From the IMG/VR virus record IMGVR_UViG_3300045988_148442, positions 1 through 59,156 of that record: 59,156 nucleotides of DNA; one strand, given 5' to 3'. The translations under genes and the position numbers were made by a program. This DNA comes from a virus. Of the stretch, positions 9,421 to 34,754 are shown in pieces. Under the pieces are notes generated by a model. It was not told the origin of the DNA. It made no database searches and was given only the letters and a program-made list of their open reading frames with translations. The first letter of the stretch is position 1. Each line of letters starts with the position of its first letter.

Positions 9421-9425
9421 TGTTA

Positions 9426-9569: not shown

Positions 9570-9574
9570 TGTTT

Positions 9575-9976: not shown

Positions 9977-9987
9977 TTTTATTCTCC

Positions 9988-10167: not shown

Positions 10168-10179
10168 TTTCAACACTCC

Positions 10180-10263
10180 TTATTTATTTGCTGTAATCAT
10201 AGCCATTATAGCTACTCCAATAAACGCACCTATAAAAACGCCTATTATGATACCTAAAAGCAT
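10180..10263 (-). CDS. 27-aa hydrophobic peptide (MLLGIIIGVFIGAFIGVAIMAMITANK)
   Basis: Not in the ORF track. AGGAGG lies 5 nt upstream of the ATG at 10263. Confidence 0.45.
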   Translation of the reverse strand: MLLGIIIGVFIGAFIGVAIMAMITANK

Positions 10264-10272
10264 ATTTACCTC

Positions 10273-10569
10273 CTATCTTGTATAATCTCGGTCAAAAGGT
10301 ATTTTAAGATAATCAATAACTACTCTGTCGATATGTTCCCAAAATACCTCGTCTTTATTTGCCTTTTCTGTCAGTTTATTAATCTCTACAATCACATCTT
10401 TGCAACGGTCATTGAAATGGTACTTGTTATACAAGACATAACACATAAGTTTAAATATACGTCTTGTAAAGTCTTTACTTTGCTTTTCGAATTCTTTTTT
10501 ACCTTCTTTTTGTGCTTCTTGATTTACAATTTTCTGCATTTCTTTAGGTAGTGGTATTCTAGCTTTCAT
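10273..10569 (-). CDS. Hypothetical protein
   Basis: 98-aa ORF in operon orientation. It overlaps the stop codon of the upstream gene by 1 nt (10569). Confidence 0.6.
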   Translation of the reverse strand: MKARIPLPKEMQKIVNQEAQKEGKKEFEKQSKDFTRRIFKLMCYVLYNKYHFNDRCKDVIVEINKLTEKANKDEVFWEHIDRVVIDYLKIPFDRDYTR

Positions 10570-11360
10570 TATTCTACCTCTACAAATTCGCCGTTTTCTA
10601 ACTTATAAAAGGTATCTTCTTTTATTGTTTTACCGTCAACTTGTACTGTCTTTACGCAAACAGGAATATTTCTGTTTAAATTATTATCAAATTTCCATTC
10701 TGATAATGTTATCCAACTTCCTTTTTTAGCTTTTACTTTTGAGCTGTGTCCTGCACACATTATTACAGCGAAGTCACCGCTTGAGCCGATTTTTGCGGAG
10801 TTACCGCTTGAGCCGATTTGTGCGAAGTCACCGCTTGAGCCGATTTGTGCGAAGTCACCGCTTGAGCCGATTTTTGCGGAGTTACCGCTTGAGCCGATTT
10901 GTGCGAAGTCACCGCTTGAGCCGATTTGTGCGAAGTAACCGCTTGAGCCGATTTTTGCGGAGTCACCGCTTGAGCCGATTTGTGCGGAGTCACCTCCGTT
11001 ATCATTTTTGGCTATCGTTTCGTTTGATTTTTCCCATTCAAAATTAACGCTTGCCTGTACCAACTTTGCAAAAGAAATTTTACCCTTTACTTTCAATTTT
11101 TTAGTACAATATTTTTTGTTATCGTCTGTTTTCGGTTCGTCCAATGCTTCAACTTCCGCAAATTCGCTCATTTCACCGTTTTCGTTTACAAGTGGATAAT
11201 GATTTAATACCTCTAACGGCTCTTTGCAAAAGTGCATACCGCTTTGGCATACTTCGGCGGTTTCTTCCTCAAAAACGGTATTTTCGGCGTATTGCTTACC
11301 TCTGCATACCATTCCTTTGTCAAAGGCTTTATAGCCTTTCATTGTTACTTTGTCTGACAT
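10569..11360 (-). CDS. DUF7666-like protein with nine tandem 9-aa (SGDxAxIGS) repeats
   Basis: The N-terminus reads KGYKAFDKGMVCRGKQY...CQSGMHFC. The central segment is GDSAQIGSSGDSAKIGSSGYFAQIGSS... repeated. Confidence 0.65.
   Translation of the reverse strand: MSDKVTMKGYKAFDKGMVCRGKQYAENTVFEEETAEVCQSGMHFCKEPLEVLNHYPLVNENGEMSEFAEVEALDEPKTDDNKKYCTKKLKVKGKISFAKLVQASVNFEWEKSNETIAKNDNGGDSAQIGSSGDSAKIGSSGYFAQIGSSGDFAQIGSSGNSAKIGSSGDFAQIGSSGDFAQIGSSGNSAKIGSSGDFAVIMCAGHSSKVKAKKGSWITLSEWKFDNNLNRNIPVCVKTVQVDGKTIKEDTFYKLENGEFVEVE
10770..10995. repeat. Near-perfect 27-bp tandem repeat, about 8-9 copies, with an 81-bp higher-order unit; it is coding
   Basis: The unit accgcttgagccgattt(t/g)tgcg(g/a)ag(t)(c/t/a) is repeated head to tail. 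Confidence 0.85.
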
Positions 11361-20640: not shown

Positions 20641-20958
20641 ATGTCTGACATCGGCAACAAATTAAAAACTTTGAGAAAGGGGAGAGGACTAACACAATTA
20701 CAATTAAGTGAAAAATTAGGTATAAGCCGTTGCACAATATCTAATTATGAATGTAGCCGTAGAAGTCCGCATTTATCGGATTTGAGCCGATTTGCAGAGT
20801 TTTACGGTGTATCTTTGTCCTACTTTGGTATTGATACTAAAGATGAACGGTTTGAATTATTAAGTCGTGCTAAAAGCGTATTTTGCAACAATGATATTTC
20901 AAAAGAAGAAAAAGAGGAAATTTATAAATCAATAATGAAGATTTATTTACAACTGTGA
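20641..20958 (+). CDS. cI-like XRE-family repressor
   Basis: LRKGRGLTQLQLSEKLGISRCTISNYE. AGGAGGTGA lies upstream of ATG 20641. It is followed by the integrase. Confidence 0.8.
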   Translation: MSDIGNKLKTLRKGRGLTQLQLSEKLGISRCTISNYECSRRSPHLSDLSRFAEFYGVSLSYFGIDTKDERFELLSRAKSVFCNNDISKEEKEEIYKSIMKIYLQL

Positions 20959-20969
20959 GGAGTGAAAAA

Positions 20970-22520
20970 ATGCATATAAGAGTAGGACTATATGCAAGAT
21001 ATTCAGATACAAAGCAAGATGACGGATATTCTATCGAATATCAAATGTCCGAATGTCAAGAATATTTAAACAAACAAGGTTTATCATTGACTAAAACTTA
21101 TATAGACCAAGCAATAACAGGAACAAAGGTTGCAGGGCGTGAAGCGTTCCACGAGTTAATAAATGATGTCAAAAATGAATTGATAGATGTTGTTGTAGTA
21201 TATAAGTTCAGCCGTATATTCCGTAACGCTTATGAAAGCCACAAGTACCGTAAAATGTTTAAAAAGCATAATGTAAAGCTAATATCTGTCACTCAATTAG
21301 TAGATGATGAAACATCATCAGGGCAACTTATGATAGGTGTTATGGCAAACATTGACGAATACCAAAGTGCAGTTATCAGCGACCACGTTAAAAGTGCTAT
21401 GCGTGAAATGGTGTCAGAGGGTTTCTTTGCAGGCGGTACAGTTCCATACGGTTATAAATTAGAGGTTGTTCAATACGGTAAAAAGGTAAGAAAAAGATAT
21501 GTACCTGATGAATATGAAAAAGAGGTTGTAAAAAAACTATTTGAATTGTATGCAGATAACTATTCTTTGAAGTATCTGCAAGACTATACAAAGAGCATTG
21601 GTGCGGCTACAAGACAAGGTAAATCGTTTGGAACAACATCAATTGCAAGAATGTTAAGAAATGATTTTTATATCGGAGTATTGCGATATAACGCACAAGG
21701 TCACGAGCCTATTGTTGTATATGACATTATTCCACCTATAATTGATAAAGTTTTGTGGGATAGAGTGCAGAAACGGCATAAAAGCCAAAATTATGTTAGA
21801 CCTCGAAAGAGAAAAGATTTATATTCTTTAACAGGGAAAATAATTTGCGGTAAATGTAAAAAACACTTCTTCGGAATAAGAAGTGCAAGCGTTCAACGTG
21901 GTAAAAAATATGATTATAAATATTATGTATGTAGCACAAGTAAAACATATGCTGAATGTTCCTGCAAGAGAATAAGAAAGGATTTTTTGGAAGAAACTGT
22001 TTTAAATGAGATTAAAAATCACATATTAAACGAAAAGGCTATTTATCAAATCGCTAATGAGATTATATCAAAATTAGGTGAAAATCCTGATAGTCAAAAA
22101 TCAAAACTCAAACAGTTAAAGAAAGAATTATCAACCATAAAATCTCAAATATCCGAGTTGTTAGAATTACGGTCATTAAGATTAGTCAATAATGCTTATG
22201 TTGCAGAGCATATGGCAAAATATGAAGAACGAGCAAAAGAGTTAGATGTGCAGATACTTTCAATTGAACAGCAGACTAAAACTGCTATATCTCACGCTAT
22301 GATAGTTGACTACCTCAATAAGATGTTGACTATTTCCGATACAACAGATGATGAGGTTTTACAAACTATTTTTAATAACTTTGTTGATAAAATCGTTATA
22401 GATAATGAGGAGATAAAGATTTACCTCTTTGTCTCCCCGACTGCTGATAAAATTGTTTATAAAGTGCCGCACGGACAGCCGAAATGGAGCTTATACAAAA
22501 ACATCAAACGCCAACAATAA
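20970..22520 (+). CDS. int: Large serine recombinase (integrase)
   Basis: The N-terminal resolvase domain reads VGLYARYSDTKQ. It is followed by a recombinase domain, a Cys cluster (CGKC...YYVCS...C.C) and a C-terminal coiled coil. Confidence 0.95.
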   Translation: MHIRVGLYARYSDTKQDDGYSIEYQMSECQEYLNKQGLSLTKTYIDQAITGTKVAGREAFHELINDVKNELIDVVVVYKFSRIFRNAYESHKYRKMFKKHNVKLISVTQLVDDETSSGQLMIGVMANIDEYQSAVISDHVKSAMREMVSEGFFAGGTVPYGYKLEVVQYGKKVRKRYVPDEYEKEVVKKLFELYADNYSLKYLQDYTKSIGAATRQGKSFGTTSIARMLRNDFYIGVLRYNAQGHEPIVVYDIIPPIIDKVLWDRVQKRHKSQNYVRPRKRKDLYSLTGKIICGKCKKHFFGIRSASVQRGKKYDYKYYVCSTSKTYAECSCKRIRKDFLEETVLNEIKNHILNEKAIYQIANEIISKLGENPDSQKSKLKQLKKELSTIKSQISELLELRSLRLVNNAYVAEHMAKYEERAKELDVQILSIEQQTKTAISHAMIVDYLNKMLTISDTTDDEVLQTIFNNFVDKIVIDNEEIKIYLFVSPTADKIVYKVPHGQPKWSLYKNIKRQQ

Positions 22521-23840: not shown

Positions 23841-24119
23841 TTATTTCACTTTATTGTATTTTTCTATCAATTCTTTGCTTTCAAGCAAATCATCAATTTT
23901 GCAATTAAGCACATTCGCTAAATCACACAAGGTATTAAGTTTTGCACTCTCAATAGGTCTGCTTTTGTTCTCATAACAAATAATTGTTGATTTTGGTACA
24001 CCTGACACATTAGACAACTCATTTTGCGATAAATGATTTTTAACTCTTAATCTGTGTAGCTTTGTTTTACCTCTCCAAATTTTTGCGGCTTTTTGCGGTG
24101 TCATACCTCTTACTCCCAT
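23841..24119 (-). CDS. XRE-family HTH protein
   Basis: LSQNELSNVSGVPKSTIICYENKSRP. Confidence 0.7.
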   Translation of the reverse strand: MGVRGMTPQKAAKIWRGKTKLHRLRVKNHLSQNELSNVSGVPKSTIICYENKSRPIESAKLNTLCDLANVLNCKIDDLLESKELIEKYNKVK

Positions 24120-24967: not shown

Positions 24968-25873
24968 TTATAATATTGCCATAGTACGCATAATTGTATT
25001 TGTATCTTTATCGTCTAATTCTTGAATTATGTGTAAATATACTTTTTGAGTTGTAGCCATATCGCTATGTCCTAATCTTCGTGAAACACTTGCAATAGAT
25101 ACTCCTGACGCAAGCAAAATAGAAGCGTGTGTATGTCTTAATCCGTGTACGCTTATTTCAGGAATACCTTGTCTTTTACAATGTCTAACCAAAATATCAT
25201 TCAATGTAGAATTATAAAAAGGTTTGTCTTTACTAACAAAAATAGGTTCGTCTTTTGGAAGCCCCTTTATAACGTTTGAAAATTGCCCTATTATTTGCCA
25301 ATCAATTTGTATATTTCTGACTGACGATTTATTTTTTGTAGGTACAAATCCTCCACCATCTTTATAATTCCAAGTTTTATTCACAATAATATATTGCCTA
25401 TTAAAATCAAAATCATTCGGTGTCAATGCTACGGCTTCAGAACATCTCATACCTGTTTTGGCAATCAAAAGGATAAGCCAATCATAATTGGGTTTATCGT
25501 CCAATTTTAAGTCTGATATTAGTTTTTGCAACTCAAATAGATTTAAAAATTTTATTTTCTTTTTTCTCGGTTGTTTTCCTTTTATAACAACTTTACGTGT
25601 AGGGTCTTTCTCTACAAGTCCATCATCAATAGCGTCTAAAATAACAGATTTTAAGTGATGATGAAAATCATAAACAGTTTGCTTTTCGTGATTTTCTGAA
25701 TATTTATTTATTATTTCCTGATAAACAATCCTGTTAAGTTCGCTTAATTGTAAATCACCTGCAAGTTTTTTTAGCCACGATAAAGTAAGCATATATTTTT
25801 TTAATGTTACATCTCTAACCGCTCCAACTTTATAAAGGTTTACCCATTTTTCAAAATATTCTACAAATGTCAT
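24968..25873 (-). CDS. Tyrosine recombinase (phage integrase / XerC-D-like)
   Basis: AKTGMRCSEAVAL, HGLRHTHASILL and GHSDMATTQKVYLH together supply the R..HxxR..H..Y catalytic set. Confidence 0.9.
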   Translation of the reverse strand: MTFVEYFEKWVNLYKVGAVRDVTLKKYMLTLSWLKKLAGDLQLSELNRIVYQEIINKYSENHEKQTVYDFHHHLKSVILDAIDDGLVEKDPTRKVVIKGKQPRKKKIKFLNLFELQKLISDLKLDDKPNYDWLILLIAKTGMRCSEAVALTPNDFDFNRQYIIVNKTWNYKDGGGFVPTKNKSSVRNIQIDWQIIGQFSNVIKGLPKDEPIFVSKDKPFYNSTLNDILVRHCKRQGIPEISVHGLRHTHASILLASGVSIASVSRRLGHSDMATTQKVYLHIIQELDDKDTNTIMRTMAIL

Positions 25874-26124: not shown

Positions 26125-27807
26125 TTATTCTCCTAACATCAGCACTTGATTATTTGTAACAGGTGCAAGATAATAATTTGATTTTGCCATAACCTCGTTA
26201 TAGGCTTGTTCACCCTGAAAACTGTCTATAACCTCTTTTTCTTCGACTGTCATATCTTTATATTTCTTTTTGCCGTATGCAGGTGGTAACCACCCTTTAC
26301 GCTGTCCTGCGTAAATGTTAAAGCGGTCTATCAATTCGGGGCAAGTGAAAGTAATATGTACCGTACCTTTTTTATAAAAATTGACTTTGAAAAATTTACA
26401 TTCTATATTCTTTGTTTCACCTAAATCAAAATAATTTTGTATTCTTAACCAACTGTCAACCTCTCTTGTCATACCACCATCAAGAAAGTTTAGTATTCTT
26501 TCAATATCTTCTAACACTTTTCTTGCCTCATATGAACGAGGTTCACCACTCCAACTACTAAATACACCGTGACAAGGCAAAATAACCTTTTTATTAATCT
26601 TATAAGCACTGTTTGTTTTCCAACCGTTATAATAATGCCTATTCTTTGAAAATTCAGGATAATATGAATGTGTTTCTGTCAATCGGTCATACATTGCTAT
26701 TATCTCATCTTCAATACCTTGCTTTATTTGTGAGTTCATTTCAACTGATAGTGTGTAAATGTTAAACTCTGTAAAATCATAGTCAGCAAGTTTTTGCACT
26801 TTTTCTCTGTATTCGTCTTGCAGTTTACTTGTTAATTTGCCAATAAATTTTGGATTTGATAATAATGCCCTCCAATATTTCAATCGAACATCTTTTAAAT
26901 AATCGTTAATTGGTACACAATCGTTATAACTTCTATCATAGCTATTTACAAGCCTTAATATTGGCTTCCTATATTCATCATCAAAACTATTCTGCATATA
27001 AGGTACTAATGCTCTGTATTGCCTTATTAGTTCAAGTCCTGACTTAACCTCAACATTGAATTGATTTACCGCCGCCTTGATATAGTCAGTTAATTCAAGT
27101 TCGGTAACATCTTCATACACATCTTCTATATGTTCAGCCTTTTTGAAACGATTGTAAATGTCGCTTTCCTCTTTCACCTGTTCAATAGCAACCTTTATCA
27201 ATGCAACTTCAACGCCTGTTTTGCGTTCTGCCGATACAAAAGCGTTGTTAATATATTCAATTTGAGCGTTATATTTGTTAAGTAATTCTAATAGTGTTCT
27301 GCGTGTTTCTGTATATGGGTTTTTAAGCGTTTCGGCATTTAGCAGGCAAATTATATTACCGCCTTTTTCTTGCATTTTGAGGGCTTTCAGGAGGTGTTTA
27401 TCTCCGTTTGAAAATGGAGGGTTCATTATAATGAGGTCATATTGTTTAAAGGGGTTATAAGTGAGGAAATTATCGTGTACTATGTGTATTCCTTTTTCAA
27501 AGAAACACTTTTTTTCTGCGTCATTATAATCTAATTTATATTTCCTTTCATCTGAAAAATTATATTTCAGCACTTGCCTTAAATTTGGGTCAATTTCAAT
27601 GCAATCAACATCAAATTCAATTCTATGATAGTTACCTTCTTTTTTGGCTATCTCTTTCAAAATATCGCCTTTACCTGCTGACGGCTCTAATATCGTGTGT
27701 ATGTAATTCCAATCAATACCCTGCAACATTTTGTCAACAAGGCTCTGCGGTGTAGGATAAAACTCGCTTGTCTGTTCGTTCTCTACTATCTGTAAAACAT
27801 TACTCAT
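26125..27807 (-). CDS. N6-adenine DNA methyltransferase with a large C-terminal domain (DUF4942-like)
   Basis: FYPTP, motif I ILEPSAGKGDIL, and motif IV LIIMNPPFS. No cognate endonuclease gene is adjacent. Confidence 0.8.
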   Translation of the reverse strand: MSNVLQIVENEQTSEFYPTPQSLVDKMLQGIDWNYIHTILEPSAGKGDILKEIAKKEGNYHRIEFDVDCIEIDPNLRQVLKYNFSDERKYKLDYNDAEKKCFFEKGIHIVHDNFLTYNPFKQYDLIIMNPPFSNGDKHLLKALKMQEKGGNIICLLNAETLKNPYTETRRTLLELLNKYNAQIEYINNAFVSAERKTGVEVALIKVAIEQVKEESDIYNRFKKAEHIEDVYEDVTELELTDYIKAAVNQFNVEVKSGLELIRQYRALVPYMQNSFDDEYRKPILRLVNSYDRSYNDCVPINDYLKDVRLKYWRALLSNPKFIGKLTSKLQDEYREKVQKLADYDFTEFNIYTLSVEMNSQIKQGIEDEIIAMYDRLTETHSYYPEFSKNRHYYNGWKTNSAYKINKKVILPCHGVFSSWSGEPRSYEARKVLEDIERILNFLDGGMTREVDSWLRIQNYFDLGETKNIECKFFKVNFYKKGTVHITFTCPELIDRFNIYAGQRKGWLPPAYGKKKYKDMTVEEKEVIDSFQGEQAYNEVMAKSNYYLAPVTNNQVLMLGE

Positions 27808-29079: not shown

Positions 29080-29382
29080 TTACACCCCCTTTGCTTCTAT
29101 CTTCTCAACCTGTGAGAATTTGAAGAACGCCGCCGTTTTCATAAACATATTTGATGTTTCTTCTTCTCCGTTATCTGTTTCAACTTTCTTGCTTGTGTAC
29201 TTCCATATTGGGAATTTTGCTATTGCCTTTTCGCCTTTCTTAACTACATATCCTAAAGACTTCCACGCTTGAAAGGTATGTATAGGTTCAGGCATTTCCA
29301 TTTCACCTATATTCATCATTTGCAAAACTCCTTGTTCTACAAGTCTTATGCTTTCTTTTTCAATGATTGCTACATTTGTCAT
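29080..29382 (-). CDS. ArdC-N-like ssDNA-binding / anti-restriction candidate
   Basis: TFQAWKSLGYVVKKGEKA resembles the TFxQWxxxGxxVxKGEK motif of the ArdC N-terminal domain. It is the first gene after promoter copy B. Confidence 0.35.
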   Translation of the reverse strand: MTNVAIIEKESIRLVEQGVLQMMNIGEMEMPEPIHTFQAWKSLGYVVKKGEKAIAKFPIWKYTSKKVETDNGEEETSNMFMKTAAFFKFSQVEKIEAKGV

Positions 29383-29415: not shown

Positions 29416-29444
29416 ATTATAATACTATTGCATAATAATTTCAA
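29416..29444 (-). promoter_or_regulatory. Promoter cassette copy B (TTGAAA-17-TATAAT plus conserved leader)
   Basis: Minus strand taccgaTTGAAAttattatgcaatagtatTATAATaaatatataaaataaagaaagaggt. Confidence 0.6.
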
Positions 29445-29499: not shown

Positions 29500-30501
29500 T
29501 TATTCCCACGCATTAGAAAAGTCTTTATCTTTGAATAACGCTTGTAAACCGCTTAACTGTTTTAATCTTAATAGTTCCTCTGCGTCCATTCCTATATTTT
29601 TCATTATCCAAGCGTCTGACATTCCACTTTCAACCAATTCAGCAACAATATTAGTCATTAGTTCTATACTGTGACTTCCTCTTGCTCTGTTGTGCCTGAT
29701 AGTGCTTGCCATTCGGTTTGATATATCTTTATCAATTACTACAACAGGCAGACAACCGTTTTCACGCTCGTATATGTCTTTGTGTTCAATCATTGTGCGG
29801 TAACGGTGAAATCCGTCAACTATTTCGTATTTATCTTCATCTTTTAAGTAATAGCAGACAATCGGCATTGTGTACTTATCTTCTTTTATTGATTGATACA
29901 ATAATTTCATTTCAGGAGGTGAAACCTTATTTGGATTATAAGAATTAGCTTGTATCTTTTCTATTGGTACAGGGATAACATCATATACAGGGCTTTCGGC
30001 GTACCAAGCAGTATATCCGCCAGTAGTTTTTCTTTTTCCATTTAGCACTTCACCCAAATGTCGCATATCTAAATTTAGCACTCTGCAAGCTGTGGACATA
30101 CTGTTAAATTTAATAACATCTCCTGTATTTGGATTTTTCAAAATAATCGGGCGTTCTCTGTGTTTAACAGATTTTTCTGTTCTCATTCCATAGTTTATGT
30201 TGTATGTGTGTGTACACCATTCAAGGTTTGAATAATGATTATCTGCCTTATTTTCGTTTATATGATTTACTTGTGTTTTTGTTTCAGGATTATCATTTTC
30301 GCAAAACTCATAAGCAACAAGTCTATGAACTTTAAAAGTTTGTGAATGGTCTTGCTCATTTTTCAAATTGACTATATAATAACCGTCCTTATCTTTTCTT
30401 TGAGATATTTCTTTTCCATTTGTATCTAAAATTACGCCATTTTCAGTTACTTTATATTTACCTTTTTTTACATTTGGATAAGTTATTTCTTCTATAAACA
30501 T
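29500..30501 (-). CDS. Fusion of an HNH homing-endonuclease-like module with a ParB/Srx (IbrB-type) domain
   Basis: The N-terminal half reads KVHRLVAYEF...QVNHINENKADNHYSNLEWCT, a NUMOD4/HNH_3-like pattern. The C-terminal half reads IEKIQANSYNPNKV...YEIVDGFHRYRT...IRHNRARG. Confidence 0.7.
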   Translation of the reverse strand: MFIEEITYPNVKKGKYKVTENGVILDTNGKEISQRKDKDGYYIVNLKNEQDHSQTFKVHRLVAYEFCENDNPETKTQVNHINENKADNHYSNLEWCTHTYNINYGMRTEKSVKHRERPIILKNPNTGDVIKFNSMSTACRVLNLDMRHLGEVLNGKRKTTGGYTAWYAESPVYDVIPVPIEKIQANSYNPNKVSPPEMKLLYQSIKEDKYTMPIVCYYLKDEDKYEIVDGFHRYRTMIEHKDIYERENGCLPVVVIDKDISNRMASTIRHNRARGSHSIELMTNIVAELVESGMSDAWIMKNIGMDAEELLRLKQLSGLQALFKDKDFSNAWE

Positions 30502-30513
30502 ATCTATCTCTCC

Positions 30514-31803
30514 TTATAAATTCTTGTATTTTTCTAACGCTTTACGGCGTTTTTTAATTTCGTTTTTCGTTTGAGTAAATCCCATATACTTGCAGTAATA
30601 ATCATTTTTGATGATACAAACGCACATTCTTTTGTATGTTGGTATCTCTTTAAATTTTGTGCAATTTGTATCATCTAAATAATCATCAAATGCAATAACA
30701 TCTTTACTTGATTGCTTGCTTATTTTTCCTTTGTTTTTAAATTCGGCATTTTCTGCTTCAAGTTCGGATATTGTTTCATCATCAAGGCAACCGCCTTTTT
30801 CTTTCCAAAATTTAATTGAAGTATTGAGTTTTTCAAGGTAATGTTGTTTAGTTTTATCATCAAGGGTATCAAGCAAAAAATAACAATATTCTTTCCAAGT
30901 AAAATGGTCGGGCTTTTTAATCTTTTTCCAACCCATAGCGGTTGTATCACCATATAAACCTAAAAAATTTACTCCGTTTACTCTGCCCACCATTTTCCCC
31001 CAATTATTCGGGTCAATCACTTTGTAATATTTTAGTGTAGCACCTGCACAATCATTAAACGGACTTGCAACTCTCATTTGTTCTATTCCCATTCCTGCTT
31101 GATAATATAAATCATATAATTTGTTATACGGCTTTTCATATTTTCCGTTGTATATCCAAACATCTTGTGTTTCCCAATCATAGATAGGAAATCCGTGATA
31201 AACACCACAATTTTGTTCAAGTACATACTTTTTGCTTTTGTATTTGCGTATATCGGTTTTTGCTCTCATATAGCGTGTATAACTCTCACTTGCTCTTATT
31301 CCTGTTATAACGATTGTTTTTTTATTTCCGTGTGTTTTCTTATACCACACGCAAAAATTGTCTTGTACTTCATAATCAGGTGCATTATAAACAAATTCGC
31401 AATTATCTTGATTTATCACATAACTATAATCTGGAATATCTCGTACCCATATATCCTTTTTAGATTGTTCCCACGGTGTCCAGTAAGCACCTTGCATATT
31501 ACAACAGCATTGAGCCTTAATGGGTAAACATAACCAATACCGCTTTATATCACTGAATTTTGTGAATGTTTCCGTTACATAATCGGTTGTCATTTGATAT
31601 TGTGCTTCATAGTCAAGATGATACATAGCTAATTTATCAAGCATATTATGCTCTTTTGCGTAATCATAGCAAAGATTAAGGCAAATTCCGCTATCCTTGC
31701 CACCGCTAAAAGCAACAATAATATTATCAAATTCATTGAAAATATAAGATATTCGCTCAACTGACGCTGTATAAACATCAACATCTAAATACTTTTTACC
31801 CAT
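30514..31803 (-). CDS. PAPS-reductase-like PP-loop ATPase with a Cys-containing C-terminal domain (IbrA / DUF3440-type)
   Basis: The PP-loop reads IIVAFSGGKDSG. The product is 429 aa and its C-terminus contains CVCIIKNDYYC. Confidence 0.8.
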   Translation of the reverse strand: MGKKYLDVDVYTASVERISYIFNEFDNIIVAFSGGKDSGICLNLCYDYAKEHNMLDKLAMYHLDYEAQYQMTTDYVTETFTKFSDIKRYWLCLPIKAQCCCNMQGAYWTPWEQSKKDIWVRDIPDYSYVINQDNCEFVYNAPDYEVQDNFCVWYKKTHGNKKTIVITGIRASESYTRYMRAKTDIRKYKSKKYVLEQNCGVYHGFPIYDWETQDVWIYNGKYEKPYNKLYDLYYQAGMGIEQMRVASPFNDCAGATLKYYKVIDPNNWGKMVGRVNGVNFLGLYGDTTAMGWKKIKKPDHFTWKEYCYFLLDTLDDKTKQHYLEKLNTSIKFWKEKGGCLDDETISELEAENAEFKNKGKISKQSSKDVIAFDDYLDDTNCTKFKEIPTYKRMCVCIIKNDYYCKYMGFTQTKNEIKKRRKALEKYKNL

Positions 31804-33023
31804 TCTTTTACTCCTTTCTGTGCTATCTCTTTTTTTACTTCATCAAGCAAATTCGACTTTTTATCTAAACTACCTTGTATAAGTCTTTCAAGTCCTACAT
31901 TACACCAAAGGTTGTAATAATCAACATCATATTCCTGCCCTATTCTGTATATCCTTGCTTCTGCCTGTTCTCTTTGTGCATAATCAAAGGTATGTTCAGC
32001 AAATATTATGTTTTTGCAAAATTGTAGGTTAAGCCCAAAAGCACCGCAACCGTAAGTAATATATAGCACTCTTTCGTTCTCTCTGAACCTCTGTATTGCA
32101 TTTTTTCTCTGCTCTGTATTCATATCACCTACAACCTTTAACGCTCCGTCAGGTATGCTTTTAAGGTATTTTACAAATACTATTACTTTACCCTCAATAT
32201 CATTTATCAACTTATTTAACTTATTTTCCCTATCAGTCACACTACAATAATGAGATTGTAATAATTGAGAAAATGCGAAAAAGTCAATATTGCTCATATC
32301 ATCAATCACTTTTTCAAGATATTCATTTTTTATAAATTCATATTCTGCATATTCCTTACAATTCATTAAATAATATATATCGTGATACCTCTTTTTCGCT
32401 TCAATATCAAGTTTACAATCAAAAATATAAGGCTGAATAAGACTTATTAAATGCTCAATATTATGCTGTTTTTTTACAATTCCTTTCAATTTCCCTCTAA
32501 TGTAATACTCGCAATAGGTATTTTTAAATTCGTTGTAACTCATATTGAGGATTTTTGGGGATAAAAATTGCATTTGCGTCCAAAGGTCGAGGACATTTTT
32601 GGAAAGTGGTGTGCCGTTTAAAATCAATTTGTAGGTTGCTAACTCGCCGATTTTTAATATTCTTTCTGTTCGTTTTGCGTCCTTATTCTTAATTTTTAAA
32701 CTTTCATCAACTACCACAAAGCACCGTTTATTTTGCATTTTTTCAAGCACATCAAGATATATTCGGTCACTACTTCCGATACTTTCACAACCCACAATAT
32801 CAAGCGTTAATTCAGAGTGCCATTTCTGCCGTTCCGTTTCAATTTCATTTTTGAGGGAGTAAGGGCAAATCCAAAGTACATAATCAACCTTATGTATCTT
32901 ACTTGCAATAAGGTCAAGGGCTACCTTTGTTTTGCCCGTTCCCTGCTCCATAAACAAAGCACCAACTTTTAACTTTGATAATTTATCAAACGCTGACTGT
33001 TGATTATTCGTCTTTGAGTTCAT
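31785..33023 (-). CDS. Compact SNF2-family helicase/translocase
   Basis: Motif I EQGTGKT, motif II VVVDESLKIKN, motif III LNGTPLSKN, and motif VI QREQAEARIYRIGQ. Confidence 0.8.
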   Translation of the reverse strand: MNSKTNNQQSAFDKLSKLKVGALFMEQGTGKTKVALDLIASKIHKVDYVLWICPYSLKNEIETERQKWHSELTLDIVGCESIGSSDRIYLDVLEKMQNKRCFVVVDESLKIKNKDAKRTERILKIGELATYKLILNGTPLSKNVLDLWTQMQFLSPKILNMSYNEFKNTYCEYYIRGKLKGIVKKQHNIEHLISLIQPYIFDCKLDIEAKKRYHDIYYLMNCKEYAEYEFIKNEYLEKVIDDMSNIDFFAFSQLLQSHYCSVTDRENKLNKLINDIEGKVIVFVKYLKSIPDGALKVVGDMNTEQRKNAIQRFRENERVLYITYGCGAFGLNLQFCKNIIFAEHTFDYAQREQAEARIYRIGQEYDVDYYNLWCNVGLERLIQGSLDKKSNLLDEVKKEIAQKGVKEWVKSI

Positions 33024-33396
33024 CTATAGCCTCTGCCTTTTCTGCTTCTTTTTCTACAGGTTTGTGAGTTTCATATGGATTTTTAAACTCTTTCTTTGAT
33101 ATATTTTTATCAATAATACCAAACGCTTCTTCAAATTCAGAAACACCTATTGTTTTTTCTGAAATTACTTCACGCCTGTTATATACACCGTTTCCATACT
33201 TTTTAAGATTAAATTGAAACTCCTCTGTATATCCTACCGACACGGCGGCTGAATGTCTGCCGTTTCTCACTAATTTTGACGAATGCCAAAATACATATCC
33301 GTCATATTTTGAATTATGTGGCATTTTGAATAAAACCGCTTTTTCAGTTTCAGTTTTGATTAAATTTGTATTGATGTTAATATTTTTCCAATTCAT
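33004..33396 (-). CDS. Hypothetical protein co-translated with the SNF2 gene
   Basis: 130 aa with 20-nt overlap with the SNF2 start. Confidence 0.55.
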   Translation of the reverse strand: MNWKNININTNLIKTETEKAVLFKMPHNSKYDGYVFWHSSKLVRNGRHSAAVSVGYTEEFQFNLKKYGNGVYNRREVISEKTIGVSEFEEAFGIIDKNISKKEFKNPYETHKPVEKEAEKAEAIDELKDE

Positions 33397-33448
33397 TTAT
33401 TTTTACCTTTTTGCGGAGAGTGTTGTTTACACTCTCCGCTTCTCCTTA

Positions 33449-33700
33449 TCAGAATTTCAATGTCATTAAAATTTCTTCATCTGCGAAGATGTAACATCTT
33501 AATTTTTCGTCCCAAATTTCTCTGTTAGTTATAACTGTTACACCGTTAAGCTTCCAAGTAACAGAATATTCTCTACCGTCTTTTAAATCAGGAAGTTCAA
33601 CATTTGCAATAGCTTCGATTGCTTTTAAATACCAATCACAATGTGAATTGTTGTATGATTTTGATAATTCGTTTAAAAGTAAAATTTTTGTGTTTGTCAT
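33449..33700 (-). CDS. Hypothetical protein, first gene after promoter copy C
   Basis: 83 aa. AAAGAAAGAGGT lies upstream of ATG 33700. Confidence 0.55.
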   Translation of the reverse strand: MTNTKILLLNELSKSYNNSHCDWYLKAIEAIANVELPDLKDGREYSVTWKLNGVTVITNREIWDEKLRCYIFADEEILMTLKF

Positions 33701-33732: not shown

Positions 33733-33761
33733 ATTATAATACTTTTGTATAACAATTTCAA
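33733..33761 (-). promoter_or_regulatory. Promoter cassette copy C (TTGAAA-17-TATAAT plus conserved leader)
   Basis: Minus strand taccgaTTGAAAttgttatacaaaagtatTATAATataatcacaaaataaagaaagaggt. Confidence 0.6.
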
Positions 33762-33867
33762 TCGGTAAAATAACCAAACTTGATATAATATTTTTGTATA
33801 TTATTATACAAATGTGATATAATAAAAATAGAAAGTAGTTATGTTATAATTTGAAAGGGTGATAACT

Positions 33868-34125
33868 ATGGAATATAAAGAAATTTTGAATTACGCAATT
33901 AAAGGTTTAGGATATGAATTAGAAAAGGTTGATAAATCATTAAGGAGAGGGCGTAAACTGATTGAACAATACAATAGAGGTGAAACACTCAAAACTGATT
34001 TAACAATTTATGAGATTAAAGAGGTTTGCAGTAAGAAAGTTGCTGAAATTGAATTACTTGAAAAGAAAAGAAATGAGTTGTTATGGAATTTAGCGGAATT
34101 AGAAGATAATGAGCAAAAAAAATAA
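33868..34125 (+). CDS. Moron-like helical protein, the only plus-strand gene outside the lysogeny block
   Basis: AAAGGGTGA lies upstream of ATG 33868. The gene has its own upstream AT-rich promoter-like region and a terminator immediately downstream. Confidence 0.6.
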   Translation: MEYKEILNYAIKGLGYELEKVDKSLRRGRKLIEQYNRGETLKTDLTIYEIKEVCSKKVAEIELLEKKRNELLWNLAELEDNEQKK

Positions 34126-34149
34126 AGGGAGGTCAATTAAGACCTCCCT
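34126..34149. terminator. Bidirectional intrinsic terminator
   Basis: AGGGAGGUC-aauuaa-GACCUCCCU flanked by an A8 run on the left and UGUUUUGUU on the right. It lies between convergent genes. Confidence 0.8.
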
Positions 34150-34156
34150 TGTTTTG

Positions 34157-34423
34157 TTATTTATTGGATAATTGCTTGTAAATCTGATTTATTCCTGTTG
34201 CTGATAGACCGCTTACAATGCCTATTGCTATCGCCATAAGATAATCATTAGCAGGAAAATCAGGGACAATAAACATTGCTACTACTCCGAGAATACCACC
34301 TACAACTCCGCTGATAATAGGTATATACTTGTTATCAAGCGGTGTTGTTTTAATTCCTTGTGAAATAAGATAACAAATAATAATAATACTGGGTATTGTT
34401 GCAATTCCGAAAATATTTTCCAT
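34157..34423 (-). CDS. Holin (small protein with 2-3 TM helices)
   Basis: 88 aa with hydrophobic helices (IPSIIIICYLI, IISGVVGGILGVVAMFIV, AIAIGIVSGL) and a polar C-terminus. It follows the XhlA-like gene. Confidence 0.75.
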   Translation of the reverse strand: MENIFGIATIPSIIIICYLISQGIKTTPLDNKYIPIISGVVGGILGVVAMFIVPDFPANDYLMAIAIGIVSGLSATGINQIYKQLSNK

Positions 34424-34439
34424 AATAAAATCCTCCTAA

Positions 34440-34754
34440 TTATCTTAATATCATTCCAAGAACAGCCCCTATAATAGCACCGATAATGCCTGTAATAATA
34501 CAACCTATAACTGCTCTTTTATAGTATTTATAGTTGTCTAAAGGTTCGTGTTCAAGTCTTTCAAGGCGTTCCCCTTGCTTTTGCTGTTCTTTTACCATAT
34601 ATTCCATATTTACGCCGAGTGTCTTAACAGATGTTGTTAATTCTATTAGTGTTTTATCTGACTTTTCTCGTTCGTCCATACGGTGTTTAAGGCTTTTAAT
34701 TTCTTGTTCGTGATTTTCAAATTGTACTGCAATCTGTTCAGGTGTCACATTCAT
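34440..34754 (-). CDS. xhlA: XhlA-like lysis-associated membrane protein
   Basis: Coiled-coil N-terminus and a single C-terminal TM segment (VIGCIITGIIGAIIGAVLGMIL). It occupies the same position as in the PBSX xhlA-xhlB arrangement. Confidence 0.65.
   Translation of the reverse strand: MNVTPEQIAVQFENHEQEIKSLKHRMDEREKSDKTLIELTTSVKTLGVNMEYMVKEQQKQGERLERLEHEPLDNYKYYKRAVIGCIITGIIGAIIGAVLGMILR

What the first reader, a model, noticed from the sequence alone, without database searches (positions are those of the whole stretch)
29500..33700. A five-gene operon with an SNF2 helicase, an IbrA-type PAPS-reductase-like ATPase and an IbrB-type ParB protein may be an uncharacterised phage DNA-modification or anti-defence system
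The operon 33700->29500 has its own consensus promoter. It encodes two small unknown proteins (83 aa and 130 aa), a compact SNF2 translocase (GTGKT, DESL, RIYRIGQ), a PP-loop PAPS-reductase-like enzyme (SGGKDSG) with a Cys-containing C-terminal domain, and a ParB/Srx-domain protein (DGFHRY). Two established systems pair these domain types. ParB-like DndB and PAPS-reductase-like DndC act in DNA phosphorothioation. ParB-like DpdB acts with SNF2-type helicases in 7-deazaguanine DNA modification. IbrA and IbrB of E. coli have this domain pair, but no biochemical activity is assigned to them. From this I infer that the cassette modifies DNA, with an adenylating enzyme delivered by a ParB clamp or nuclease and a translocase. 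It could protect phage DNA from host restriction or act against competing DNA. No desulfurase, transglycosylase or restriction partner is present, so this would not be a standard Dnd or Dpd system.
Basis: partly seen in the sequence, partly recalled or inferred. Interest (0 to 1): 0.8.

Follow-up and report, generated by a model that had tools for sequence, protein, structure and literature searches.

The report
Phage IbrA/IbrB enzyme pair with helicase
This gut phage carries a widespread, very conserved but biochemically uncharacterised enzyme pair (IbrA/IbrB) coupled to its own small SNF2 DNA motor; it probably acts on DNA, it is not a Dnd or Dpd system, and it is already common in sequenced phages and in a third of E. 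coli genomes.

Summary
Five minus-strand genes lie at 33700->29500, and every named domain and motif is confirmed by HMMs.

The unit is a member of the IbrA/IbrB family (PAPS_reduct+DUF3440 next to a ParB_N protein). This pair was adjacent in 72 of 73 related loci, and similar DNA occurs in 1930 of 5426 complete E. coli genomes.

In 34 of the 73 loci the pair sits next to a dedicated compact SNF2 ATPase. A ~130-aa beta-rich protein lies beside that SNF2, directly upstream of it in nearly all cases. The gene order is permuted among phages of Bacillota, Fusobacteriota and Bacteroidota, so the conserved module has four genes, not five. The 83-aa gene is not conserved.

The IbrB gene here carries an in-frame, full-length I-HmuI-like HNH/NUMOD endonuclease that the closest relative lacks. 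This fusion is common elsewhere.

Scores against DndC, CysH, DpdE, ZorD, DrmD and canonical ParB are far below the curated cut-offs. No cysteine set is conserved in IbrA, so phosphorothioation and PAPS reduction are unlikely.

I found no published biochemical function. The best inference is an ATP-driven, DNA-directed modification or processing machine (confidence about 0.4). Verdict: a new member of a known, uncharacterised kind, of moderate interest.

The parts
33733..33761 (-). sigma-70-type promoter-like site TTGAAA-17 nt-TATAAT upstream of the 83-aa gene
   Evidence: 11/12 match. The sequence and the downstream GA-rich RBS were read. Such sites as a class are not enriched over shuffles.
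33449..33700 (-). 83-aa ORF, lineage-specific and not part of the conserved module
   Evidence: No Pfam, PHROG or NCBIfam hit. No homologue in L001-L048 or L053-L075. Its region does not align with the closest relative L004.
33413..33439 (.). 11-bp GC-rich inverted repeat (hairpin) between the 83-aa and 130-aa genes
   Evidence: RNA fold -22.1 kcal/mol, z = -7.0. No U-tract on the sense (minus) strand, so it is not a canonical terminator in that direction.
33004..33396 (-). 130-aa beta-rich protein (phrog_27058), the conserved partner encoded directly upstream of, and overlapping, the SNF2 gene
   Evidence: PHROG 3.2e-25. A homologue was found in 22 of the 34 SNF2-containing loci, directly upstream of the SNF2 gene in nearly all. 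The family has 511 representative clusters. The AF2 model has pLDDT 82 with 8 strands and a helix. There is no PDB match, and only uncharacterised phage proteins match in BFVD.
31785..33023 (-). compact SNF2-family ATPase (412 aa, core only) of a subfamily dedicated to IbrA/IbrB loci
   Evidence: Pfam and PHROG hits. The closest solved relative is the Sulfolobus SNF2/Rad54 core 1z63 (8e-19). Motifs Q, I, II, III and VI are invariant in 20 homologues. Every GenBank phage with >=33% identity has IbrA/IbrB adjacent.
30514..31803 (-). IbrA-like protein: PP-loop PAPS-reductase-fold domain (aa 27-234) plus DUF3440 (aa 237-417)
   Evidence: Pfam DUF3440 6.1e-83 and PAPS_reduct 7.8e-15. phrog_2302 1.3e-98. 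The AF2 N-domain matches FAD synthase/FMNAT, PAPS/APS reductases, CysD, TilS and LarE. The residues S33 and G35-K36-D37-S38 of the SGGKDS PP-loop are invariant, and no universal Cys set exists.
29992..30501 (-). I-HmuI-like HNH plus NUMOD-like endonuclease segment fused in frame to the N-terminus of IbrB
   Evidence: PDB 1u3e matches over its full length at 1.2e-13. PADLOC homing endonuclease 5.8e-24. About 515 bp are absent from the closest relative L004, which has ~80% nt identity in the flanks. The same fusion occurs in L016 and in more than 50 protein clusters.
29500..29991 (-). IbrB domain: ParB/Srx-superfamily N-terminal domain (DGFHRY, RHNRARGSH) plus a helical C-terminal part
   Evidence: phrog_2159 2e-80 and ParB_N. 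The profile matches the Noc and ParB N-domains at 3.7e-6 and 4e-5, and the free serine kinases SbnI (0.0038) and SerK (0.12) more weakly. It is 47-85% identical to IbrB of phages of five phyla, with 52 invariant columns.
29416..29444 (-). second promoter-like site TTGAAA-17-TATAAT downstream of IbrB, ahead of the ArdC-N-like gene
   Evidence: 11/12 match.
29080..29382 (-). context, not part of the module: 100-aa protein with an ArdC N-terminal (ssDNA-binding, anti-restriction) domain
   Evidence: Pfam ArdcN 2.7e-6. A homologue lies between SNF2 and IbrA in L008-L010.
26125..27807 (-). context, not part of the module: 560-aa Dam-like N6-adenine methyltransferase with DUF4942
   Evidence: Pfam DUF4942 1.2e-36 and Dam 2.1e-7. 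Also near the cassette in L001 (phiFN37) and L004.

Best explanation
The locus is a member of the phage and prophage IbrA/IbrB family in its extended four-gene form: small beta-rich protein, compact SNF2 ATPase, IbrA, IbrB.

Shown by the analysis:
- IbrA has an intact PP-loop nucleotide-alpha-hydrolase / adenylyl-transferase fold plus the DUF3440 domain.
- IbrB is a ParB/Srx-type NTP-binding domain with a DGxHR motif. It is extraordinarily conserved across phages of distant hosts.
- The SNF2 protein has all its ATPase motifs and belongs to a subfamily found only beside IbrA/IbrB.
- The genes are translationally coupled.

Inferred:
- The four proteins work as one ATP-driven machine on double-stranded DNA.
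- SNF2, with the 130-aa protein as adaptor, translocates along or opens the duplex.
- IbrB binds NTP and DNA and positions or activates IbrA.
- IbrA adenylates, or transfers AMP to, a DNA group (a base carbonyl or a phosphate). The outcome is a covalent modification that is not sulfur-dependent.
- Here the module is probably expressed from a host-type promoter next to an ArdC-N-like gene and an orphan Dam-like methylase. The likeliest benefit is protection or marking of phage DNA against host nucleases.
- The I-HmuI-like HNH/NUMOD domain fused to IbrB is a homing-endonuclease acquisition. It supplies an extra DNA-binding and possibly nicking module and is not needed for the core function.
For: - Family identity: Pfam and PHROG hits. 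IbrA-IbrB were adjacent in 72 of 73 loci. Proteins named IbrA/IbrB in Escherichia phage PhiR5_2 align over their full length.
- Functional coupling with SNF2 and the 130-aa protein: seen in 34 of 73 loci. Gene order is permuted in Streptococcus, Lactobacillus and Clostridia phages (130aa-SNF2-IbrA-IbrB), Fusobacterium phage phiFN37 (IbrA-IbrB-126aa-SNF2) and Flavobacterium phages (small ORFs-SNF2-IbrB-IbrA). All GenBank phages with a close SNF2 homologue carry IbrA/IbrB next to it. Overlapping stop and start codons are seen.
- Catalytic competence: the PP-loop residues S33 and G35-K36-D37-S38 and many other residues are invariant in IbrA. SNF2 motifs are invariant. The IbrA fold matches adenylyl-transferring and adenylating enzymes.
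- A universal substrate rather than an arms-race target: IbrB is 47-63% identical between this gut Clostridia-type phage and phages of E. coli, Microcystis, Mycobacterium and Pseudoalteromonas.
- DNA as the substrate: SNF2 enzymes are dsDNA translocases (established knowledge of the family). IbrB is repeatedly fused to NUMOD DNA-binding or HNH modules. The neighbours are anti-restriction-type genes.
- In-genome parallel: a second ParB_N protein is coupled to a TAGT-like DNA glycosyltransferase.
- Against sulfur chemistry: no Cys is conserved family-wide.
Against: - No experiment or published biochemistry supports any activity (all literature searches).
- 39 of 73 loci lack SNF2, so DNA translocation is not essential to the core pair.
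- The DUF3440 domain and the 130-aa protein have no structural homologue of known function.
- Three highly conserved IbrA segments are modelled with low confidence.
- The only phenotype I know of for the family is activation of prophage eib gene expression in E. coli ECOR-9 (my own recollection of Sandt et al. [quoted passage not shown] That phenotype is not obviously a DNA-protection one.
- The position between lysis and integrase genes is also typical of lysogenic-conversion or defence cargo.
Confidence: 0.4

Rival explanations
1. Prophage-borne defence or exclusion cargo. The module is expressed from the lysogen and attacks or marks incoming foreign DNA, using SNF2 as translocase, HNH and ParB-like domains as nucleases, and IbrA as modifier or effector. 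It would thereby protect the host and prophage from competitors.
For: - The module lies between the holin genes (34157-34754) and the tyrosine integrase (24968-25873), with its own host-type promoter. This is a classic moron position.
- The SNF2 protein's nearest defence-library relatives are ZorD, DpdE and DrmD.
- ParB plus HNH is the domain pair of GmrSD-type restriction enzymes (PMC12839542).
- A 2026 preprint predicts defence clusters that pair a nucleoid protein with a PAPS reductase, one of them with a ParBc protein.
- ibrAB-like DNA is present in 36% of complete E. coli genomes.
Against: - The module is also present in phages that show no sign of lysogeny (FCL-2, PMC4541368) and in Streptococcus equinus phages where it precedes the early replication genes.
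- It shows extreme sequence conservation instead of the rapid diversification typical of immune sensors.
- PADLOC has no system-level hit. IbrA matches only a fragment of DndC, and IbrB matches only a homing endonuclease.
- HNH is absent from most family members.
Confidence: 0.2
2. Regulator or remodeller of (pro)phage gene expression. [quoted passage not shown]
For: - The only phenotype I know of for the family is activation of prophage eib genes by the ibrAB island (my recollection of Sandt et al. 2002). The FCL-2 paper, which cites Sandt and Hill 2000, and the SEED subsystem name reflect this.
- In Escherichia phage PhiR5_2 the pair follows two antirepressor genes.
- Bacterial SNF2 proteins such as RapA act on RNA polymerase (established knowledge).
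- E. coli ybdNM is a silenced, regulator-controlled operon (PMC9068703).
Against: - An invariant PP-loop and dozens of invariant residues in both proteins indicate catalysis on a fixed substrate, not a DNA-binding switch.
- The same pair occurs in hosts as different as Mycobacterium, Microcystis and Clostridia, where silencing proteins differ.
- The eib effect could be a secondary result of DNA modification.
Confidence: 0.15
3. Chance juxtaposition of independent parts. SNF2 plus the 130-aa protein is a replication or recombination helper, IbrA/IbrB is a separate accessory pair, and HNH is a selfish homing endonuclease. There is no joint mechanism.
For: - 39 of 73 IbrA/IbrB loci have no SNF2.
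- The HNH segment shows presence/absence polymorphism between close relatives, as mobile homing genes do.
- Phage genomes are mosaics.
Against: - This SNF2 subfamily was never found away from IbrA/IbrB in GenBank phages at >=33% identity.
- The linkage survives gene-order permutation across three host phyla.
- The reading frames overlap.
- HNH/NUMOD-IbrB and NUMOD-only-IbrB fusions form large, diverged families.
Confidence: 0.07
4. Auxiliary metabolic gene. IbrA is a PAPS reductase that boosts host assimilatory sulfate reduction during infection.
For: - The PHROG category is 'moron, auxiliary metabolic gene' and the usual annotation is 'phosphoadenosine phosphosulfate reductase'.
- This reading is repeated in virome papers (PMC12323421).
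Against: - The cysH and PAPS-reductase equivalog models score 24.1 and 19.6 bits against cut-offs of 165.1 and 254.2.
- No conserved Cys lies at the end of the reductase domain (C252 in 5 of 20 sequences), where CysH carries its catalytic cysteine (the CysH feature is from established knowledge).
- IbrA is obligatorily paired with a ParB-fold protein and often with a DNA translocase.
Confidence: 0.03

Closest known systems
IbrA/IbrB of Escherichia coli (ECOR-9 ibrAB island; paralogous YbdN/YbdM of K-12) and their phage homologues (phrog_2302 / phrog_2159)
   Same: - The two-gene core has the same architecture: PAPS_reduct+DUF3440 followed by a ParB_N 'IbrB-like' protein.
- Alignment with IbrA and IbrB of Escherichia phage PhiR5_2 runs over the full length (28% and 47% identity).
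- The four-gene layout matches that in Streptococcus phage Pika. Lactobacillus phages CR28 and phiAQ113 have SNF2-IbrA-IbrB preceded in CR28 by a small ORF with no detectable sequence similarity to the 130-aa protein.
   Different: - The E. coli pair has no adjacent SNF2 or 130-aa gene and no HNH/NUMOD fusion.
- The only phenotype known for it (eib activation) has not been examined in any phage version.
- No biochemical activity is known for either.
DndB/DndC of the DndABCDE DNA phosphorothioation system (also SspD, BREX type 4 BrxP)
   Same: A ParB-superfamily protein with a DGxHR-type motif is paired with a PP-loop, PAPS-reductase-fold ATP pyrophosphatase that acts on DNA.
   Different: - DndC models match only residues ~158-236 of IbrA (34.6 bits in PADLOC; TIGR03183 29.8 bits against a 290.4 cut-off).
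- There is no conserved three-Cys Fe-S site and no Cys dyad.
- No DndA, DndD or DndE is present.
- DUF3440 is absent from DndC.
- No DndB model matches IbrB (DndC features from PMC10853773).
Dpd 7-deazaguanine DNA modification system (DpdA transglycosylase, DpdB ParB-like ATPase, DpdE and related SNF2-type helicases)
   Same: A ParB-like NTPase assists a DNA-modifying enzyme, and SNF2-family helicases are encoded in the same cluster.
   Different: - No TGT/DpdA and no preQ0 synthesis genes were found among the window ORFs scanned.
- DpdE scores 14.9 bits against a 500 cut-off.
- No DpdB model matches IbrB.
I-HmuI (Bacillus phage SPO1 intron-encoded HNH nicking homing endonuclease, PDB 1u3e)
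   Same: Residues 13-167 of the 333-aa protein align with residues 10-170 of the 174-aa enzyme (1.2e-13). The alignment includes the HNH His and Asn residues and the NUMOD-like DNA-binding helix-turn-helix.
   Different: - Here it is fused to IbrB rather than free-standing or intron-encoded.
- The Asp before the catalytic His is Asn (vnH against vdH in the alignment).
- Related proteins keep only the NUMOD-like part.
Minimal SNF2/Rad54-like ATPase core (Sulfolobus solfataricus SSO1653, PDB 1z63) and defence-system SNF2 helicases ZorD, DrmD, DpdE
   Same: It has the two-lobe SNF2 ATPase core with all motifs.
   Different: At 412 aa it has no accessory, nuclease or targeting domains. Scores against ZorD, DrmD and DpdE are 15-50 bits against cut-offs of 500-1500.

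Membership tests
IbrA/IbrB family (PAPS_reduct+DUF3440 protein with IbrB-like ParB_N protein) | IbrA architecture: an N-terminal PP-loop PAPS-reductase-fold domain followed by a full DUF3440 domain | tested here: met
   PAPS_reduct 7.8e-15 (aa 27-234). DUF3440 6.1e-83 covering profile 1-181 of 182. phrog_2302 1.3e-98.
IbrA/IbrB family (PAPS_reduct+DUF3440 protein with IbrB-like ParB_N protein) | IbrB-like ParB_N protein homologous to proteins named IbrB | tested here: met
   phrog_2159 2e-80. It is 47% identical to IbrB of Escherichia phage PhiR5_2, with 52 invariant columns in an 11-sequence cross-phylum alignment. Hits named 'IbrB-like domain-containing protein' and 'immunoglobulin-binding regulator B' appear.
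IbrA/IbrB family (PAPS_reduct+DUF3440 protein with IbrB-like ParB_N protein) | The two genes are adjacent and co-directional | tested here: met
   They are 12 nt apart in the window and adjacent in 72 of 73 related loci.
IbrA/IbrB family (PAPS_reduct+DUF3440 protein with IbrB-like ParB_N protein) | Activation of prophage (eib) gene expression | not testable with these tools
   This is an experimental phenotype known to me only from E. coli ECOR-9.
DndC / DNA phosphorothioation (Dnd, Ssp, BREX type 4) | Score above the DndC equivalog cut-off | tested here: not met
   TIGR03183 scores 29.8 bits against a 290.4 cut-off. The PADLOC DndC models match only aa 158-236.
DndC / DNA phosphorothioation (Dnd, Ssp, BREX type 4) | 4Fe-4S site with three conserved cysteines plus a cysteine dyad (PMC10853773) | tested here: not met
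   No Cys is invariant across 20 IbrA sequences. The best are C92 (19/20), C394 (18/20), C99 (16/20) and C404 (14/20).
DndC / DNA phosphorothioation (Dnd, Ssp, BREX type 4) | Partner genes: cysteine desulfurase DndA, ABC ATPase DndD and DndE (or SspABC, or BREX PglZ/BrxC) | tested here: not met
   None was found in the cassette or in the other window ORFs scanned. Not every small ORF was scanned.
Assimilatory PAPS/APS reductase (CysH) | Score above the cysH / PAPS_reductase cut-offs and a conserved catalytic Cys at the end of the reductase domain | tested here: not met
   TIGR00434 scores 24.1 against 165.1 and TIGR02057 scores 19.6 against 254.2. C252 is present in only 5 of 20 sequences.
Dpd 7-deazaguanine system | DpdA (TGT-family transglycosylase) and DpdB present; DpdE above cut-off | tested here: not met
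   No TGT was found among the ORFs scanned. DpdE scores 14.9 against 500. IbrB hits no Dpd model in PADLOC.
Canonical ParB/Spo0J partition protein (CTP clamp) | TIGR00180 above cut-off, with the N-terminal CTPase domain, HTH and C-terminal dimerisation domain and the GERR arginine patch | tested here: not met
   TIGR00180 scores 27.1 against 58.45. Only the N-terminal domain aligns with Noc and ParB, and DGFHR replaces GERR.
SNF2-family ATPase | SNF2-related N-lobe plus helicase C-lobe with motifs Q, I, II, III and VI | tested here: met
   Pfam hits. 1z63 matches at 8.1e-19. Q8, GTGKT, DES, LNGxP and QxxxRxxRxGQ are invariant in 20 homologues.
I-HmuI-type HNH homing endonuclease | Full-length HNH_3 plus NUMOD-like architecture and sporadic presence among close relatives | tested here: met
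   1u3e residues 10-170 of 174 match at 1.2e-13. The segment is absent from L004 with ~80% identical flanks. Cleavage activity and homing were not tested.
Known anti-phage defence systems (PADLOC-DB v2) | Component models matching as a system | tested here: not met
   Only partial superfamily-level hits were found: a DndC fragment, SNF2 cores, and a homing endonuclease.

The most novel reading that the evidence does not exclude
IbrA/IbrB, with its dedicated SNF2 motor and beta-rich adaptor, is a new class of ATP-dependent DNA-modifying machine. A PP-loop enzyme would adenylate a base carbonyl or a backbone phosphate in duplex DNA, which would then receive a non-sulfur group. This would be a post-replicative chemistry distinct from methylation, phosphorothioation, 7-deazaguanine exchange and the 5-hydroxymethylpyrimidine pathways. 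It would be present in thousands of phages and in about a third of E. coli genomes. In this phage the product might even be the acceptor for the separately encoded ParB-coupled TAGT-like glycosyltransferase.
Probability: 0.3. Interest if true: 0.85.

Novelty: new member of a known kind. Interest (0 to 1): 0.5.

Why it matters
IbrA/IbrB is one of the most conserved and most widespread phage-borne enzyme pairs with no known activity:
- There are thousands of 90%-identity protein clusters.
- IbrA-related matches occur in 226 GenBank phage records, 41 of them over at least 80% of its length.
- Similar DNA occurs in 36% of complete E. coli genomes.

It is routinely mislabelled as a sulfur-metabolism gene, a partition protein or a virulence regulator. 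Two results narrow the hypothesis space:
- It travels with its own SNF2 DNA motor across phages of three bacterial phyla.
- It lacks the cysteines needed for Dnd-like chemistry.

Together these point to dsDNA as substrate and to non-sulfur chemistry. They also identify tractable phages for direct tests: dairy Streptococcus and Lactobacillus phages, and Flavobacterium FCL-2. If a DNA modification is found, it would add a new chemistry to phage-host conflict and to the epigenetic toolbox. If not, it would still correct a widespread annotation.

Tried and rejected
- Near-identical DNA in GenBank phages: none found. The window is a gut-metagenome phage known only from metagenome contigs. A host could not be assigned beyond Clostridia-like MAGs.
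- Solved structures by sequence for IbrA: none with the single sequence and none below E = 0.1 with the profile.
- Fold searches: nothing of known function for the 130-aa protein or for DUF3440.
- N-terminal extensions of longer 130-aa-family proteins: no Pfam domain found.
- Literature: ten full-text searches (IbrA/IbrB, DUF3440, COG3969, ybdN/ybdM, PAPS reductase with ParB, SNF2 or phage, DndC with IbrA) found no biochemical function.
- The conserved 'ELKDE' C-terminus of the 130-aa family looked like a docking peptide. I rejected that reading because it coincides with the overlapping SNF2 ribosome-binding site and ATG (AAGGATGAA).
- Fe-S or persulfide chemistry, suggested by the CCC and CxC...C motifs in this clade, was rejected as a family feature after a cross-phylum alignment.
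- A link between the TAGT-like glycosyltransferase and IbrA/IbrB was not supported. The three GenBank phages with TAGT homologues were not seen among the IbrA or SNF2 hits.
- I did not test protein-protein complexes, because no multimer prediction was available.

Full report

Yes. Five co-directional minus-strand ORFs occupy 33700->29500: 83 aa (33449-33700), 130 aa (33004-33396), 412 aa (31785-33023), 429 aa (30514-31803) and 333 aa (29500-30501).

Pfam confirms the following:
- SNF2-rel_dom (1.1e-13) and Helicase_C (3.3e-9) in the 412-aa protein.
- PAPS_reduct (7.8e-15) and an essentially full-length DUF3440 (6.1e-83) in the 429-aa protein.
- ParB_N (2.5e-6) in the C-terminal half of the 333-aa protein.

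PHROGs places them in phrog_62, phrog_2302 and phrog_2159, and places the 130-aa protein in phrog_27058. All the quoted motifs are present.

A TTGAAA-17-TATAAT site (11/12) lies at 33761-33733, just upstream of a GA-rich ribosome-binding site and the first ATG. Promoter-like sites as a class are not enriched in this 31-33% G+C DNA (28 found, 28.6 expected). A second 11/12 site lies after IbrB, at 29444-29416.

**2.

(a) The N-terminal half of the 'ParB protein' is a complete I-HmuI-like HNH/NUMOD endonuclease.
- It hits Pfam HNH_3 and I-HmuI_NUMOD-like, and the PADLOC homing-endonuclease model at 5.8e-24.
- PDB 1u3e aligns over residues 10-170 of 174 at 1.2e-13.
- Alignment with the closest relative (IMG/VR contig L004, ~80% nt identity in the flanks) shows that ~515 bp (30506-29992) are simply absent there. 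In L004, IbrB starts MYKSPVYDV....
- The fusion is nevertheless an established architecture. L016 has it, and one search lists more than 50 protein clusters of 322-353 aa with HNH/NUMOD plus ParB_N.
- A further class of ~220-230 aa keeps only the NUMOD-like DNA-binding part in front of IbrB.

(b) The 83-aa gene is not part of anything conserved.
- It has no family hit and no homologue in 73 related loci, and it does not align with L004.
- A strong hairpin (33413-33439, -22 kcal/mol, z = -7) separates it from the 130-aa gene.

(c) No minus-strand terminator-like site follows IbrB until 23575. The co-directional array therefore runs on through an ArdC-N-like gene, several small ORFs, a DUF4942/Dam-like methylase and a tyrosine integrase.

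**3. What it is.**

The core is the IbrA/IbrB pair.
- tblastn of IbrA finds 226 GenBank phage records, 41 of them over at least 80% of its length. Many are annotated 'IbrA | IbrB' or 'PAPS reductase | ParB-like partition protein'.
- The big protein collection holds 4972 clusters at E <= 1e-10 for IbrA and at least 7739 at E <= 1e-20 for the HNH-IbrB protein.
- DNA similar to the ibrAB pair of an E. coli phage occurs in 1930 of 5426 complete E. coli genomes.
- I collected 73 distinct loci: 45 IMG/VR loci, 18 GTDB genomes or MAGs, and 10 GenBank phages. IbrA and IbrB are adjacent in 72 of them, and the exception is cut by a contig end.

A compact SNF2 gene lies next to the pair in 34 of the 73 loci. 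A homologue of the 130-aa protein lies beside that SNF2 gene in at least 22 of those 34, directly upstream of it in nearly all (in L060 it follows IbrB).

The linkage survives rearrangement:
- 130aa-SNF2-IbrA-IbrB in Streptococcus phages and Clostridia MAGs. Lactobacillus phage CR28 has SNF2-IbrA-IbrB preceded by a small ORF with no detectable sequence similarity to the 130-aa protein, and Clostridium phage phiCs5676-1 has a 389-aa ORF in that position.
- IbrA-IbrB-126aa-SNF2 in Fusobacterium phage phiFN37.
- small ORFs-SNF2-IbrB-IbrA in Flavobacterium phages.

Every GenBank phage whose SNF2 is >=33% identical to this one has IbrA/IbrB beside it. More distant SNF2 hits (~25%, in Vibrio, Pelagibacter and Aeromonas phages) belong to other helicases. 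The 130-aa/SNF2 and SNF2/IbrA genes overlap by 20 and 19 nt. The conserved module is therefore four genes, with IbrA/IbrB as the universal core.

**4. Anatomy and what it implies.**

IbrA:
- The PP-loop residues S33 and G35-K36-D37-S38 are invariant, and about 70 other positions are invariant or nearly so, across 20 sequences from phages of Bacillota, Actinomycetota, Cyanobacteriota and Pseudomonadota.
- The AlphaFold model (pLDDT 76) has an N-domain that matches FAD synthase/FMN adenylyltransferase, PAPS and APS reductases, CysD, TilS and LarE. These enzymes either transfer AMP to an oxyanion or adenylate a substrate before substitution.
- DUF3440 finds no structural relative.
- No cysteine is conserved family-wide: C92 is in 19/20, C394 in 18/20, C99 in 16/20 and C404 in 14/20 sequences. 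The CCC and CxC motifs seen in this clade are clade-specific. This argues against a DndC-type Fe-S/persulfide mechanism and against CysH chemistry.

IbrB:
- The domain is 47-63% identical between this phage and phages of E. coli, Microcystis, Mycobacterium and Pseudoalteromonas, with 52 invariant columns.
- Its profile aligns with the N-terminal NTP-binding domain of Noc and ParB, with DGFHR in place of GERR. It aligns more weakly with the ParB/Srx-fold free serine kinases SbnI and SerK.
- It lacks the canonical ParB architecture (TIGR00180 scores 27 against a cut-off of 58).

SNF2:
- It is a bare core, closest to Sulfolobus SSO1653 (8e-19), with motifs Q, I, II, III and VI invariant.

The 130-aa protein:
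- It is predicted with confidence (pLDDT 82) as eight strands followed by a helix and a disordered tail.
- It has no PDB counterpart and matches only uncharacterised phage proteins in BFVD.
- Its family has 511 representative clusters and is never fused to SNF2.

**5. Most likely mechanism (inferred, not shown).**

I infer a single ATP-driven machine acting on double-stranded DNA:
- SNF2, with the small protein, translocates or opens the duplex.
- IbrB binds NTP and DNA and positions or activates IbrA.
- IbrA adenylates a DNA group, giving a non-sulfur covalent modification.

The arguments are as follows:
- The SNF2 subfamily is dedicated to these loci, and SNF2 enzymes are dsDNA translocases.
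- IbrB is repeatedly fused to DNA-binding NUMOD or HNH modules.
- Conservation of this degree fits a universal substrate rather than a host-specific protein target.
- The neighbours in this phage (ArdC-N-like, orphan Dam-like methylase) are anti-restriction-type genes. They recur near the cassette in L001, L004 and L008-L010.
- ParB-fold proteins are partners of DNA-modifying enzymes elsewhere. This includes the present genome, where a second ParB_N gene (6322-6951) overlaps a TAGT-like glycosyltransferase gene (5564-6325) just upstream of the terminase genes. The same arrangement occurs in Streptococcus phage Javan291.

I put this reading at about 0.4.

**6. Rivals.**

- **Prophage defence or exclusion cargo (0.2).** The position between the holin genes and the integrase, the host-type promoter, and a 2026 preprint predicting nucleoid-protein/PAPS-reductase/ParBc defence clusters support it. 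Its presence in phages without signs of lysogeny and its extreme conservation argue against it.
- **Expression co-activator or remodeller (0.15).** This rests on the only family phenotype I know of, eib activation, and on the subsystem name. Invariant catalytic residues argue for an enzyme, and the phenotype could be secondary.
- **Unrelated juxtaposition (0.07).** The SNF2 linkage pattern contradicts it.
- **Sulfur-assimilation auxiliary gene (0.03).** This is the usual annotation. Sub-threshold cysH scores, the lack of a catalytic Cys and the obligatory ParB partner contradict it.

**7. Comparison with known systems.**

- It is a member of the IbrA/IbrB family. The architecture, homology and adjacency tests were all met.
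- It is not Dnd, Ssp or BREX type 4. TIGR03183 scores 29.8 against 290.4, it lacks the Cys features that define DndC (PMC10853773), and it has no DndA, DndD or DndE.
- It is not Dpd. There is no TGT, and DpdE scores 14.9 against 500.
- It is not a canonical ParB, and it is not any PADLOC system.
- It may work like Dnd or Dpd only in the general sense that a ParB-fold NTPase assists a DNA-modifying enzyme.

**8. Novelty and verdict.**

The family and this very gene arrangement are already in public phage records. The family's function, however, is unknown in everything I could search.

The window therefore holds a new member of a known but uncharacterised kind. Its notable local variation is the HNH/NUMOD-IbrB fusion.

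- The conserved module has four genes.
- The SNF2 subfamily is dedicated to IbrA/IbrB loci.
- Conserved cysteines are absent from IbrA.

None of this establishes a function. Interest: 0.5.

Noticed in passing
window 5564-6951 (-), next to TerS 4937-5500 and TerL 3713-4936: There is a second candidate DNA-modification pair. A 209-aa ParB_N protein (6322-6951, phrog_620) overlaps by 4 nt a 253-aa TET-associated-glycosyltransferase-like protein (5564-6325; Pfam TAGT 2.5e-15; phrog_842 'beta-glucosyl-HMC-alpha-glucosyltransferase'). No TET/JBP or hydroxymethylase was found among the ORFs scanned, so the sugar acceptor is unknown. The same ParB-like/TAGT/TerS/TerL arrangement occurs in Streptococcus phage Javan291. 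Only 3 GenBank phages have a TAGT homologue.
   Followed up: partly
window 29992-30501 (-); L004 8297-8315; L016 8259-9281; proteins P0160-P0225: Presence/absence polymorphism of the I-HmuI-like HNH/NUMOD segment is seen at the ibrA-ibrB junction. There are large families of HNH-NUMOD-IbrB fusions (322-353 aa) and NUMOD-only-IbrB fusions (~220-230 aa, e.g. P0204 from Fusobacterium gonidiaformans). Single clusters fuse IbrB to a GNAT acetyltransferase (P0271), an SNF2 fragment (P0261), a DUF3440 fragment (P0245) or DUF262 (P0181).
   Followed up: partly
window 33413-33439: A very stable GC-rich hairpin (11 bp stem, -22 kcal/mol, z = -7) lies between the 83-aa and 130-aa genes. It has no U-tract on the sense strand but a T-rich tail on the opposite strand. 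It could be an mRNA processing or stabilising element, a protein-binding inverted repeat, or a terminator for antisense transcription.
   Followed up: partly
L007-L010, about 6980-11050: Four IMG/VR phage contigs carry two diverged IbrA/IbrB pairs back to back in the order IbrA-IbrB-IbrB'-IbrA'. Three of them have an ArdC-N-like gene between SNF2 and the first IbrA.
   Followed up: no
L022-L048 and L056 (e.g. L031 95-535; L056 7526-7831): IbrA/IbrB loci without SNF2 are flanked in 28 loci by two other conserved small genes: a ~147-aa ORF just upstream of IbrA (no family hit) and a ~102-aa ORF just downstream of IbrB. The second resembles the C-terminal end of DUF3440 (Pfam 0.0023; phrog_15645 3.5e-6). 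This may be an alternative accessory set.
   Followed up: partly
window 20955-22520 (+) and 24968-25873 (-): The phage encodes two recombinases: a 521-aa large serine recombinase (phrog_95, 2.8e-109) and a 301-aa tyrosine integrase (phrog_1, 8e-63). A repressor-like gene lies at 23841-24119. The phage is therefore probably temperate.
   Followed up: no
L001 (Fusobacterium phage phiFN37) 10763-13072: The same phage that has IbrA-IbrB-126aa-SNF2 also has a separate ParB-like gene directly upstream of a queuine tRNA-ribosyltransferase (DpdA-like) and a queuosine-precursor transporter. This is a 7-deazaguanine-type module alongside the IbrAB module.
   Followed up: no
L004 5357-5800; alignment A1 C-termini: The closest relative has an extra 147-aa ORF inserted between the 130-aa gene and SNF2. 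Whichever gene sits immediately upstream of SNF2 ends in ...ELKDE, because its last codons contain the SNF2 ribosome-binding site and ATG (AAGGATGAA). This is conserved translational coupling rather than a protein motif.
   Followed up: yes
window 26125-27807 (-) and 29080-29382 (-): A 560-aa Dam-like N6-adenine methyltransferase fused to DUF4942 and a 100-aa ArdC-N-terminal-domain protein lie downstream in the same orientation. The methylase is 82% identical at DNA level in L004 and has a homologue near the cassette in phiFN37.
   Followed up: partly
window 33859-34125 (+): An 88-aa gene is transcribed divergently from the cassette promoter region (promoter-like TTGATA-16-TATTAT at 33780-33807). 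It is followed by a bidirectional terminator-like hairpin (34125-34150). A homologous 87-aa gene sits at the equivalent place in L004. No family hit was found.
   Followed up: no
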